Source of the DNA: Hormiphora californensis
Taxonomy: Eukaryota > Animalia > Ctenophora
Direction: 5' to 3'
Assembly: GCA_020137815.1 (NCBI GenBank)
Contig: CM035361.1
Location: 6,448,001 to 6,512,000 of the forward strand
Length of the DNA: 64,000 nucleotides
Shown here: piece after piece, positions 1,714 through 55,700 of the stretch
Layout of the letters: every line of letters starts with the position of its first letter
Position numbering within the stretch: position 1 is the stretch's first letter
Position numbers and translations under genes: made by a program
Notes under the pieces: model-generated
Databases searched by the model: none
What the model was told of the DNA's origin: nothing
The model's input: the letters and a program-made list of their open reading frames with translations, nothing else

Positions 1714-4700
1714 AGAAAATCATCGATACTAATTCGCATGGCTGGAACCGGCAAGATAGAAATAACGACAAAAGCTACTGATGCAAACTCAAAATCTAAA
1801 TTTAAATGGAGTCAAAAATCATCGTTAGTTATTGCCTAGCTAGACTGTGTTTCGCGCGCCCCGCTCCTTTACAAATGTAAAGGAGGGTTAGAACAAACGT
1901 TGGTGATCTGTGTTGGGTGTTTTTAGTTAGTTACTTTTTATTTTATGTTTTTGGGAAGACAACTAATAATTGTTTTATTTTCAGTCGTCACGAAGAAAAA
2001 TCAAATACTGCTAACAGTGTAAGACATATAAAAAATCAATTTTTCCTGCTACTTTCCCACTACAAAAAAAACATAAATTTTCAGAAAAAAAAACATCGAA
2101 AAAATCACTTTACAGGCAACAGGAAGTTACAAAAAATCACTTTATAGGCAACAGGATTAGTCCTGAACAGTTACTCTGAAAACCAAGTTTCATGGTCCGT
2201 TGATTATGGTGGCATGGTTGCAACAGCACTGAATGGAGAACCCATGTCTACCATGGATACACAGATGGCAGACCCCTGGAGCAGTGAATGTGAGTCATTT
2301 GTAGGCTGAATAATTATAGTTCAGGTCATTTTTAGGCTGAATAATTATAGTTCAGGTCATTTGTAGGCTGTATAATTATAGTTCAGGTCATTTCATTTCA
2401 TTTCTCTAGACTGAATAATTATACTTCAAACAGTGCCATTATATCGTTGTTTATCTTCTTAATTCTAATATACTGTTCATTTCTCTAAACCAGCTAGGCC
2501 AGCTTTTTTAGACCCTGTCACAGACCCTGTCCCTGTGTTTTTTTAGACCCTGTATGGTTTTAATGTGGTTTTAATGTGGTTTTAATTCGATCACCAACCA
2601 CAAGTTGTAGAAATAAAAGTACACTAAATCAGGACATTTATAACTAATTTAACATTCTAACAATAATTCCATTATATCAATTATTTTTCAGCTAAGCTGC
2701 TATATGTTACCTGTACCAAAAAGATCAACTTTGATACCAGCAGTACCGCGGTAAGTGCAGCTTCTTTATTCACAGATCAAACTATATCATGTTATTCACT
2801 ATGGATTTGTTCTAACCATATCCTCCATTTCGCGGGCTATGAGACTAGTGAGGGTGGGAACTTCTAATATACTGTAGATTTATTTCTTCAGTACCATTAG
2901 ATCGTTATCTTCTTAATTCTAATCATATATAGTTTGTACTGATGAAAAGTTTCCTTGGAAACAATTGTTTACTACTAAACGGTAGTTTATCTTCTTAATT
3001 CTAATTATATATACTGTTCTGATACAGGTTTCGGATACTTATGAAGAAGCTTCCTCTACCGGTACAACTGGGATCTATATCTCAGGCGGGGTTATTAGTG
3101 GAGGTACGGTTTTATAATCCAATCAATAATTTCATAATTTTCAATGTCAAGTTTGATGTACAATGTACATTGTACATTATATGCCATGTTTTCAATGAGT
3201 TGATTGAGTTCAAAAATTTCGCAGGTAAATAATGACATATTAATTAATCTATAACATGGCAATATATTAATTTATAACATGCAATTATTTAATCATATTG
3301 TAATCATATTGTCCAAGAAATATCATTCATAAAGTCCTTCTATACAGGTAGTGCAACGTACAAGAAATATCATTTATAAAGTCCTTCTATACAGGCAGTG
3401 CAACGTACAAGAAATATCATTCATAAAGTCCTTCTATACAGGCAGTGCAACGTACAAGACGAACCCCCCACACCCCCCCCCCCCCCCCCCGGTAGATCCA
3501 CCCCTGCTTCTATACAGGTAGTGCAACGTACAAGAAATATCATTCATAAAGTCCTTCTATACAGGTAGTGCAACGTACAAGAAATATCATTCATAAAGTC
3601 CTTCTATACAGGTACTAGTCCAACGTACAAGAAATATCATTCATAAATTCCTTCTATACAGGTAGTGCAACGTACAAGACGAACCCCCCACACCCCCCCC
3701 CCCCCCCCGGTAGATCCACCCCTGCTTCTATACAGGTAGTGCCACGTACAAGACGATTTGGGAGATGGAAGACAGAATTACAGTATCCATCCGAGAGGAT
3801 GGGTTGGGTGTTAAAATAATCTGCGGAACGAATACATGCGAGGGGACGAGAACAAAAGGGTACAAATCAATTTATTAAAATTATTCAAAATTATCTAAAA
3901 TTGTTTAAAACTGTTTATAATGATTAAATTTATCTAACATCATTACAGATTTGTTAACATCCTGCAGGTTTTTGAATCCGGAAGGTTCTCTTAACTTTCA
4001 GATGCTAATATTCCTGACGTATAATGTCAATAAAATCGAGGAAATTAACATATTCCATCGATCTGAACTGGTCAAAACTTGTAAGTTAACATGATACTGC
4101 CGAACCAGGATGATAAATTCCCCAATTATAGGAAACTAATGGTAGTTCACCTGTAATTAGTTAGTTAATTAAATAATTTTTGGTGGTTCAAGTACACAAC
4201 TAACAGATAAAATAATTTTCCAGGCACCGTTTCCTGGGCCACTTGCAGATTGAAGTTTGCCACATATGAAACTTCCCTGTGTAGAGAGTGGAGAGGCTCA
4301 ATTATCTTCACTCTTGTAAGTAAACAACCAGGAAATACTGGTCCCTGATTGGCTGATAACCAGTCACGTGACCTAAATAACGAGTTCTGATAGGTTGTTT
4401 ACTTGTTTCGGTCAGGTTCCTGGTAAACAACCAAGCGAATTTTCTACAAACACATTGAAAAAGTACATGTGGTATCTGTGTGCCACATTTCATATCTATA
4501 TCCGGCAAACAATAATATATATTTGACAAATATTTCAGAGTGTTTAACACAGAGGTTGATAATGATGATAGCGCATTTTCTATGGATCAAGTAAAAAATG
4601 GATGGTTTGATGTAGAGTCGTATAAGGGGGCCTATTTATGGAGCCTTATGAGACGTATCAGCACTAGAAACGACGTTGATTTCGAACCTTCACCTGCCTT

Positions 4701-52700: not shown

Positions 52701-55700
52701 ATGGGTTTCAGGCCGGATGTGGCAACCTCTAAATCAAGTCCGATTGAGCTGAAATTTTATTTGGTGGTTAGTTTCATTATTCCTCATACCCAAAAAAGTT
52801 GAGTCGAGATCAACCATTTTTTTTAAATCATGGGGCGTTTGGCTAACCCTATTGTTCTTTTTTAATTTATTGACCCATTTAAACTCCATTTAAACATTTT
52901 AGGTTCATTTATGTATCATTACAAAATGTTCGGATTTATGTTTGTTCCAATATTACTATCGTGGGGTAACTTTGGACGGGTGTCCAAAGTTACCCCACCC
53001 TCATTCCAAAGTTACCCCATGCCCTAAAACCCCACTTACACTAAAATACACGTTAATTAATGTAATTAAATGAAAGGGGACCAAAAATTTCACTAGTTAT
53101 ATCTGGTGTACTAGGTCTGGAACGGGATTATTTGGTTCAAAAATTTTCGAGTGTGGTTCTGGCAAGGAGTTATTTTAGGAGAATGCTAAAAAGTGGTACA
53201 AAGTTACCCCAACTTACGGTATATGACGGAGTCAGTCTCCATACCACTCTGTATATGTATCGAAACATGTTAAGAACGTGTTACTATGACAACCAATCAA
53301 CCACTCTGCCCCCGACAACGTGGAACAACAAAGTGTTGTCATGACAACCAATATTCCACTCTGCCCCCGACAACGTGTAACAACAAAGTGTTGTCATGAC
53401 AACCAATATTCCACTCTGCCCCCGACAACATGTACATAATAACAAAGTGTTGTCATGACAACCAATCAACCACTCTGCCCCGACAACGTGTAACAACAAA
53501 GTGTTGTCATGACAACCAATATTCCACTCTGCCCCCGACAACATGTACATAATAACAAAGTGTTATCATGACAACCAATAAACCACTCTGCCCCCGACAA
53601 CGTGTAACAACAAAGTGTTGTCATGACAACCAATATTCCACTCTGCCCCCGACAACATGTACATAATAACAAAGTGTTGTCATGACAACCAATAAACCAC
53701 TCTGCCCCGACAACGTGTAACAACAAAGTGTTGTCATGACAACCAATCAACCACTCTGCCCCCGACAACGTGTAACAACAAAGTGTTTTCATGACAACCA
53801 ATATTCCACTCCTTAGGTGGCAGTTAGCAATGAGGGGGAGTATTCGTGTAACGTGGAATTTGCGACACAAAACATCAAATCGTCCAGTCTACAGTCCCCG
53901 AGGCTACAGAAAACTACCCTTAAAATCATGAGATACCTCCGGAATCTCCCAGATGTTGTGTTCATTACAGAAGGTATGCATTAAAACAGTTACAATATTG
54001 TACAGTCGGACCCCAATTTACCGTGCCCCGATTTACCGGAACCCCGATATACCGGGAAGATAAACTTGCTGTTAGATGCATTCAATGATGACTATAAATA
54101 CAACATCAATTAATTGTTTACACAGGTTTTAATTCAACTATGTCGGTGACAGTTTCTTATCCAGCGGAACTCTCCAGTAGTAACATTGCTATTTCATGGC
54201 ATGACAAACTGGTAAGAGCGATCAACTAGACTGTGTTCCACGCACATAACAACGATCAACAAACACTATAACCATAACATTTTGTATCGATATATATCCG
54301 TCCTGAATCTAGTTTATTGAAATCTAATTAACTAATTAACTAATTAACTAATTTGTCACAGAATACAGAGTATGTGCAAAAACTGGAGGAGGAGGAAATT
54401 AACGGGGCCCGGTACCTCACCTCATCTATCAACACAACACAACCGACCCCAGCTGAGGGAGAGATGTTCCAAGTAAGCAATTGGCATTATTTTGGCATTA
54501 TTTTCCCTAAAAGCATTGGAAATTTGCATATGAAATTCGTGGGTTTTTGATACTGGGAAACATTGCTGCTTGCTCGATCCTGTTTCATCGTGCCCCTCAC
54601 TTTACAAAGGAGGGTTAGAGCACTAGAGAACTGCAAACACTAGCATCTACTGATGTGATACTAATCGAAATAGGATAATCTTGTTGATGATAATTATGTA
54701 TTATCGTTTTCCAAAAGATCAGTCTCTCTCTAACACCTTATCGCCCCCACAGGTCAAGACAGAGTACAGATCAGTCTCTTTCTAACACCTTATCACCCCC
54801 ACAGGTCAAGACAGAGTACAGTGATGTGAAGGGCCCGGGGACCATCGAATCTTCCAAAATCTACGTTAGGAGAAGGTAACATAATATATTAATTTCAACA
54901 AACATTTTTGTTTGTTTAAATATTCGTCCAAAATATAGTTCTACAGTGGACCTTAGTTTTTCCCCAAATCTCCGAGACCCGAGTACTAATTTTCTCCAAT
55001 TTCCCAGGACCGTAGCAGTGCTATTTCCCGTACTATCAAGGTCAGATGAAGAGAAGCCATACTATTACGGCATCGAGGGAAATACATTGATGTTGACTTG
55101 TGTTGTTAATACTGAGATTTCCATTGACAAAGCGAACGTCAGGTTAGTGAAATTTGACAAAGTTTCTCTCTGAGCTGTACAATTGAAACAGGTGGATATA
55201 TAATTGTTAGCGAAAATTTATACTGCAGTAAAGGAAAATATACCAAAAAATTAGATTTATTTTTTGTTTCAAATTACAATTTAAGCCATCACTTTCCCAG
55301 TTGGAGTATAAAATTGGAGGGGGAATCTAAATACAAACTTCTTGAGTTTGAAGAGAGTGAAGAATGCGAGGAAAACTGTATAGGAGTAACACAAGGTATA
55401 TAATTGAGCTGTTATTAATTATTAATTAATTAATTAGATTCCCAATTAATAAAGGATCCCATTTATTAACCTCCAAATTCATTAACTCAAAATAAGTTTC
55501 AAATTATGTACATATACCTTTTGACTAATTAACTAATTAGCTAATTAAATAATTGTAACTTTGAACCTATAACCTTACTGCTTGTTCTAGCGGATACAAT
55601 AGGGGGACCAGACAAGTACGAGTTTTACAACGTGATAACATTTGCAAAGACCAACTCGACTCTCCATGAAGCTAAGGTACAGGATTCTTCAAATAATGTA

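What the first reader, a model, noticed from the sequence alone, without database searches (positions are those of the whole stretch)
2099..54820. Splice-junction-anchored tandem repeats with a consistent polarity rule (best candidate for an undescribed system)
Seen: intronic duplications repeatedly straddle exon-intron boundaries of the host gene. Donor type (exon tail + GT + intron head; the FIRST copy is the real one): about 6968/7085, 10267, 10663, 17425, 22380, 23091/23156, 34315, 40940, 44168, 45221. Acceptor type (intron tail + AG + exon head; the LAST copy is the real one): 2099, 3314, 9380, 11901, 17990, 23291, 36775, 43040, 45864, 54717. Further arrays end or start within about 20 nt of a junction (2290, 15845, 16740, 23537, 40244, 47229, 53285). 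That is about 20 junctions in one gene, with 2 to about 24 copies each. Inference: either a mutational process is focused on splice junctions, or selection tolerates only boundary-overlapping duplications of exon sequence. Either way the spliceosome must ignore many near-identical decoy sites, which points to strong exon definition despite short introns, and the arrays are raw material for tandem-duplication intron gain and variable splicing.
Basis: partly seen in the sequence, partly recalled or inferred. Interest (0 to 1): 0.88.

Follow-up and report, generated by a model that had tools for sequence, protein, structure and literature searches.

The report
Splice-junction "mirage" repeats, likely ctenophore
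In a large gene of a probable comb jelly, about 18 predicted exon edges have been copied head-to-tail with their splice signals into the neighbouring intron, a known and likely harmless kind of repeat ("mirages" in lancelets, the F7 repeat in humans) that straddles splice junctions here no more often than chance predicts.

Summary
The arrays exist, but the system is not undescribed. A junction-blind detector found 18 duplications that span a predicted splice junction of a 96-exon gene: 7 donors (first copy real), 11 acceptors (last copy real), none reversed. Five arrays vary between haplotypes in short-read contigs.

The same arrangement is published as amphioxus 'mirages' and the human F7 intron-7 VNTR, where first-donor use was tested experimentally. 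This scan has noted it in other genomes.

The polarity is largely forced: 98 of 98 intact decoy sites would give a stop or frameshift.

One lead remains. Non-spanning duplications (20 of 38 versus 12.7) and copies of a small transposon (8 of 10 versus 3.4) crowd within 20-25 nt of junctions (one gene, cut-offs chosen afterwards). No RNA confirmed any junction.

The parts
1116..59332 (+). Host gene, 96 predicted exons; large extracellular mosaic protein (kringle, LamG, ricin-B lectin, Ig pieces); may begin before 1116 and end after 59332
   Evidence: Pfam hits on 5 of 18 single exons at E<0.003, all below curated cut-offs
2099..2156 (+). acceptor-spanning duplication, period 32, predicted real acceptor 2148 (last copy)
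3311..3756 (+). acceptor-spanning compound array, 47-nt unit, 7 decoys, acceptor 3736
6968..7134 (+). donor-spanning 50-nt exact duplication with spacer, donor 7003
9380..10163 (+). acceptor-spanning array, 39 nt x20, acceptor 10151
10267..10444 (+). donor-spanning array, 34 nt x5, donor 10274; one decoy lost GT
10663..11379 (+). donor-spanning array, 66 nt x11, donor 10714
11908..12071 (+). acceptor-spanning 39-nt duplication whose copies flank a MITE fragment, acceptor 12046
17425..17495 (+). donor-spanning duplication, period about 47, donor 17440; extra copies in other haplotypes
   Evidence: kringle first half ends here
17853..18116 (+). acceptor-spanning duplication, 93-98 nt, acceptor 18092; only the last copy continues into the kringle second half
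22380..22976 (+). donor-spanning array, 30/35 nt x19, donor 22387; fills nearly the whole intron
23091..23172 (+). donor-spanning 17-nt duplication around a (TG)19 run, donor 23101
23290..23411 (+). acceptor-spanning duplication, 62 nt x2, acceptor 23370
34311..34362 (+). weak donor-overlapping duplication, 22-24 nt, donor 34319
   Evidence: below the threshold
36758..36853 (+). acceptor-spanning duplication, 49 nt x2, acceptor 36839
43006..43233 (+). compound array with acceptor copies, acceptor 43221; extra unit in run X6
44167..44297 (+). donor-spanning duplication, 74 nt with inner 34-nt copy, donor 44182
45221..45818 (+). donor-spanning array, 25 nt x24, donor 45239
45865..45962 (+). acceptor-spanning triplication, acceptor 45957
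54716..54821 (+). acceptor-spanning duplication, 52 nt x2, acceptor 54805
2294..53811 (+). non-spanning duplications within 20 nt of a junction (20 of 38), e.g. 2294, 4720, 15836, 16737, 18878, 23536, 32839, 36603, 38881, 39618, 40252, 47224, 48108, 53271
4326..57036 (.). ten copies or fragments of a ~110-nt high-copy MITE-like element (4326, 5027, 11942, 19079, 26354, 33213, 39668, 44586, 51663, 56928); 8 of 10 within 25 nt of a junction

Best explanation
These are 'mirage'-type minisatellites: local duplications that likely arise at a high rate throughout the gene, are likely purged when they fall wholly inside an exon, and likely survive across a junction because the spliceosome is predicted to keep using the copy next to the intact exon.

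Shown: the copies, their positions against a predicted gene model, copy-number differences between haplotypes, intact decoy signals, and that each decoy is predicted to break the reading frame. Inferred: origin by replication slippage or repair synthesis; later expansion by unequal exchange; first-donor choice by 5'-to-3' scanning or exon definition; last-acceptor choice by pairing across the exon; removal of mis-spliced RNA by nonsense-mediated decay. About a third of surviving duplications straddle a junction simply because units of 20-100 nt land in introns whose collapsed median length is 154 nt.
For: Spanning count matches the null: 18 vs 14.9 of 85 (P=0.20) and 18 vs 14.4 of 51 (P=0.14); 18 vs 15.2 of 56 (P=0.21); 18 vs 15.6 spacer-aware (P=0.27) and 15 vs 13.1 of 44 strict tandems (P=0.30). 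About 26 exonic events expected, none listed. 98 of 98 intact decoys predicted to give a stop or frameshift. The kringle domain is completed only by first donor 17440 plus last acceptor 18092. Variation between haplotypes at 17425, 18878, 16737 and 40252, 43069. Published precedent that such arrays leave splicing normal: amphioxus Adh3, globins, TnC (passages of PMC3087553 and PMC3902484); human F7, LMNB2, PDGF (PMC1557585).
Against: Non-spanning duplications sit within 20 nt of a junction more often than the null: 20 of 38 vs 12.7 (P=0.007); strict tandems 15 of 29 vs 9.5 (P=0.015). Young strict tandems (95% identical or more) trend towards spanning: 12 vs 8.4 of 25 (P=0.07). A gene-wide null for units of 18 nt or more gives 17 vs 11.8 of 38 (P=0.048). 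MITE copies also hug junctions (8 of 10 vs 3.4, P=0.002). Power is low, so a 1.2-1.5-fold excess is not excluded. The polarity test is partly circular because the gene model was curated for phase continuity. In human 6-16 and CBS genes some decoy donors are used.
Confidence: 0.7

Rival explanations
1. Exon-flank mutational hotspot: DNA just inside intron ends is broken, nicked or opened more often (for example nucleosome linkers or transcription-coupled damage), so both tandem duplications and MITE insertions start there; selection then trims the exonic ones.
For: Near-junction excess at 10, 20 and 30 nt (12/38 vs 6.8, 20/38 vs 11.8, 22/38 vs 16.3); 8 of 10 MITE copies within 25 nt, six of them 6-19 nt after a donor; young-subset trend; two duplications with spacers or an inserted element (6968, 11908) resemble repair products (recalled, untested).
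Against: The spanning class is not significantly enriched. Cut-offs were chosen after seeing the data; one gene only; my hand mask sets the intron lengths. Constraint on intron ends could preserve duplicates there. The MITE may simply prefer GTA-like targets (loose-end consensus begins GGTA, agreement only about 0.4).
Confidence: 0.22
2. Functional splicing device: the arrays tune splice-site choice or build isoform ladders and are kept by selection.
For: Decoys keep GT/AG (60 of 62, 38 of 38); 49 donor and 16 acceptor decoys score at least as high as the real site.
Against: 0 of 98 intact decoys give an open in-frame product; units are locus-specific with no shared length; copy number differs between haplotypes; intact motifs are expected from recent origin.
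Confidence: 0.04
3. Assembly artefact: noisy long reads were stitched at junction-flanking sequence.
For: The assembly has errors: 18358-18543 has zero cover in 3 of 3 runs, and X1 and X6 contigs skip it; a base at 42702 is absent from the X1 contig; noisy GA/TC tracts near 1260-1680 and 32520-32610.
Against: Contigs with 0 differences cover the second donor copy at 17487 in X1 (17442-17629) and X5 (17437-17574); other haplotypes carry more or fewer units at five arrays; copies carry shared diagnostic variants.
Confidence: 0.04

Closest known systems
Amphioxus 'mirages' (Adh3, globins BflGb6 and BflGb9, troponin C, PGBD5; PMC3087553, PMC3902484; the original Adh paper PMC117041 was not held)
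   Same: Minisatellite-like tandem copies of an exon-intron boundary at 5' and 3' boundaries; many copies keep AG/GT; unit 10-160 bp; copy number differs between haplotypes; already proposed as a route to intron gain.
   Different: Here a probable ctenophore; about 18-20 cases in one gene; tested against a null. Normal splicing was shown by RT-PCR in amphioxus and is only inferred here.
Human junction-spanning minisatellites: F7 IVS7 37-bp VNTR, IFI6 (6-16), CBS IVS13, LMNB2, PDGF (PMC1557585)
   Same: First monomer spans the donor; identical pseudo-sites follow; the most upstream site is used (tested with 50 F7 constructs).
   Different: Donor type only in that paper; single loci; two of the five genes use some pseudo-sites.
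Variable internal tandem repeats at exon-intron boundaries in human segmental duplications (PMC2812944)
   Same: Units of about 30 bp at boundaries, variable number.
   Different: There the repeats can create new introns and isoforms; no such product is predicted for the decoys here.

Membership tests
Mirage minisatellites (amphioxus) | Tandem unit includes an exon-intron boundary | tested here: met
   18 of 85 clusters against a predicted gene model; Pfam supports the two kringle boundaries
Mirage minisatellites (amphioxus) | Both donor and acceptor boundaries affected | tested here: met
   7 donors, 11 acceptors
Mirage minisatellites (amphioxus) | Many copies retain GT/AG signals | tested here: met
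   60 of 62 and 38 of 38
Mirage minisatellites (amphioxus) | Copy number varies between alleles | tested here: met
Mirage minisatellites (amphioxus) | Normal mRNA made from the exon-adjacent copy | not testable with these tools
   no RNA covering the gene was available; inferred from reading frame
Mirage minisatellites (amphioxus) | Somatic instability (reported for Adh3) | not testable with these tools
   contigs only
F7-type VNTR with scanning selection | Killing the first donor activates the second copy | not testable with these tools
   needs minigenes
Intron gain by tandem duplication | A new intron is formed between copies, leaving the protein intact | tested here: inconclusive
   no decoy gives an open frame; no orthologous gene was found for intron-position comparison
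Introner elements (considered for the MITE) | Element equals a whole intron and supplies its ends | tested here: not met
   all 10 copies lie inside longer introns, with 61 nt or more to the farther junction

The most novel reading that the evidence does not exclude
In this probable ctenophore, the first and last 20-25 nt of introns are a mutational hotspot shared by two unrelated processes, short tandem duplication and MITE insertion; mirages are the visible tail of an exon-edge bias that is independent of selection, and this would be their first record in ctenophores.
Probability: 0.25. Interest if true: 0.55.

Novelty: new member of a known kind. Interest (0 to 1): 0.2.

Why it matters
It extends mirages to a probable ctenophore; searches listed no such report in the held library, which lacks most subscription journals. 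It also shows that their apparent targeting of splice junctions is mostly geometry plus selection. Practically, such arrays can mislead gene prediction and short-read mapping. If the near-junction excess of duplications and MITEs holds genome-wide, it would point to an exon-edge mutation bias relevant to intron gain, and this genome would be a dense natural test of how non-bilaterian spliceosomes choose among identical sites.

Tried and rejected
No whole genome is held, so no genome-wide test and no second gene was examined.

RNA: no RNA holder listed; the one guessed RNA run X7 laid 4 contigs, all on repeats, so it says nothing about expression or splice choice.

Orthologue: a search with the longest exon found none among 148 candidates (weak evidence).

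Decoy inactivation by selection: rejected; motifs are mostly intact. Spanned sites being unusually weak: rejected; mean PWM 7.8 vs 7.5 for donors and 9.5 vs 8.5 for acceptors. Introner reading of the MITE: rejected. Site 40940: too short to count. The apparent exon duplicate at 18318-18572: treated as an artefact and masked.

Rows dropped before counting: of 85 clusters, 51 lay outside my hand mask of transposon-like and nested-gene DNA; the curated 56 are those 51, three more from splitting composites and two flanking duplications put back. Period-6-or-shorter microsatellites were excluded (301 of 937 hits).

The original mirage paper (PMC117041) was not held; I know it only through two citing papers. 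No supplements were read; those of PMC3087553 hold the mirage alignments. Runs X1-X4 may be the source of the assembly and are not independent support; X5 and X6 are one sample.
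Full report
Setting. The window holds an intron-rich gene on the + strand. 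A repeat-blind dynamic-programming model was curated by hand to 96 exons between 1116 and 59332; 91 of 95 consecutive pairs are phase-matched, the median intron is 239 nt, and exon GC is 0.46 against 0.40 in introns. Five of 18 single exons hit Pfam kringle (two), Laminin_G_3, Ricin_B_lectin or V-set at E<0.003, below curated cut-offs as expected for fragments. A nested minus-strand glycosyltransferase-like ORF (14068-15795) has its best hits in Pleurobrachia bachei at 46-52% identity, so the organism is probably a ctenophore; the species was not determined.

Observation. Tandem Repeats Finder lists 157 rows. My own detector, which ignores the gene model, gave 937 hits against 0, 0 and 1 in shuffles and 85 clusters after removing microsatellites. 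Eighteen span a junction: 7 donors in the first copy, 11 acceptors in the last copy, none reversed. Site 17425 is real though short, 34315 is weak, and 40940 is unconfirmed.

Are they in reads? Two stretches without long arrays were laid on contigs. In 38665-45215, X6 has an extra unit at 43144-43186, and X1 and X6 have a shorter 40252 array. In 16312-19076, X1 and X5 show extra copies of the 17440 donor, contigs with no differences cover the second copy, and X6 has shorter versions at 16737 and 18878. The same call shows that 18358-18543 has no cover in 3 of 3 runs and is skipped by X1 and X6, so the assembly does contain a false duplicate. X1 may be the source sample.

Is junction overlap above chance? 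Each duplication was collapsed to one unit and placed uniformly in its own intron, excluding wholly exonic placements. Spanning events: 18 vs 14.9 of 85 (P=0.20), 18 vs 14.4 of 51 after masking (P=0.14); 18 vs 15.2 of 56 curated (P=0.21), or 13.5 under a gene-wide null (P=0.10); 18 vs 15.6 with spacers modelled (P=0.27). The reason is geometric: collapsed, masked introns have a median of 154 nt, so a 40-nt unit often crosses an end. About 26 wholly exonic events would be expected and none is listed, which fits purifying selection. Against this reading: units of 18 nt or more under the gene-wide null give 17 vs 11.8 of 38 (P=0.048), and young strict tandems give 12 vs 8.4 of 25 (P=0.07).

The residual signal. 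Among non-spanning events, 20 of 38 lie within 20 nt of a junction against 12.7 expected (P=0.007; strict tandems 15 of 29 vs 9.5, P=0.015); the excess holds at 10 and 30 nt. Ten copies of a ~110-nt element with inverted ends, which is very abundant in the runs, lie within 25 nt of a junction in 8 of 10 cases against 3.4 expected (P=0.002). These cut-offs were chosen after seeing the data, the mask is mine, and it is one gene, so this is a lead and not a result. Slower decay near constrained intron ends could explain part of the duplication excess; a target-sequence preference could explain the MITE.

Polarity. Using any later donor or earlier acceptor adds whole units to the mRNA. All 98 intact decoys (60 donors, 38 acceptors) would give a stop or frameshift, none an open frame. 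So the 'rule' is the only arrangement that keeps the protein, and my model was curated on that basis; it is not an independent discovery. One outside check exists: the kringle halves (profile 7-35 and 47-79) are joined by first donor 17440 and last acceptor 18092. Decoys are as strong as the real site in 49 donor and 16 acceptor cases, so the cell likely either chooses by position or degrades errors; no RNA was available to tell which.

What is known. [quoted passage not shown] PMC3902484 (passages) adds PGBD5 and troponin C. PMC1557585 (part 1 of 6 and passages) shows with 50 constructs that only the first of several identical F7 donors is used, by 5'-to-3' scanning, and lists four more human genes, two of which use some pseudo-sites. 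PMC2812944 (parts 1-2 of 6) surveys boundary repeats in human duplications. PMC8527503 (passages) reports 13% tandem repeats and many non-coding indels in a pleurobrachiid genome; PMC6142364 (passages) reports frame-preserving exon skipping in Mnemiopsis. Searches (listings only, apart from the papers named) showed no ctenophore report and no genome-wide enrichment test. Earlier notes of this scan describe the same pattern in sea urchins, annelids and other genomes; I had reached the mirage reading before opening them.

Verdict. A real, dense example of a known repeat class in a new animal group. The best account is frequent local duplication filtered by selection (0.7); an exon-edge mutational bias remains possible (0.22). 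Interest 0.2.

Noticed in passing
window 4326, 5027, 11942, 19079, 26354, 33213, 39668, 44586, 51663, 56928: A ~110-nt element with inverted ends (CAGGAACC...GGTTCCTG) and 8-9-nt flanking duplications in some copies, hAT-like by recall; summed depth in the millions; six copies 6-19 nt after a donor.
   Followed up: partly
window 14068-15795 (-): Intronless nested GALNT-like glycosyltransferase ORF (576 aa) in host intron 12535-16327; best hits Pleurobrachia bachei. An AG just upstream of its ATG could be a trans-splice acceptor; the 21-nt array 15836-16309 lies between it and the host acceptor at 16328.
   Followed up: partly
window 18318-18572: Noisy duplicate of an exon with no read cover in 3 of 3 runs over 18358-18543; likely assembly artefact. 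Similar noisy GA/TC tracts at about 1260-1680 and 32520-32610.
   Followed up: yes
window 34950-36720 and 36760-38990: Four-exon block duplicated in tandem with near-identical peptides; real duplication or uncollapsed haplotype not tested.
   Followed up: no
window 41033-42426 and about 51845-53218: Two copies of a ~1.4-kb inverted-repeat element in opposite orientation; the first is absent from a contig of run X6 (joint 41032 to 42427).
   Followed up: partly
window 19450-21537 and 60299-64000: LINE-like reverse-transcriptase ORFs (family by recall). The first is preceded in frame by a cysteine-rich exon-like module at 19529-19718 that could be a host exon or a captured one.
   Followed up: no
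window 7021, 40312, 40809, 44187, 47525 and others: A short GTAACCATG-type motif recurs, 13 hits in introns, mostly within 100 nt after a donor; a TAATTAACTAAT-type motif has 10 hits. Possible slippage seeds or splicing elements.
   Followed up: partly
window 29185-29336 and 42590-42698: Predicted exons with frameshifts; at the second, an X1 contig differs from the window by several gaps, so these are likely consensus errors.
   Followed up: partly
window 37684-38660 and 35590-36182: Long palindromic insertions inside introns (about 490-nt arms in the first), seen in the sequence.
   Followed up: no
window 48167-48862 (-) and 49179-50597: A 231-aa ORF and a 33-nt x42 purine-rich array inside the 3.2-kb intron; possible second nested gene.
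   Followed up: no
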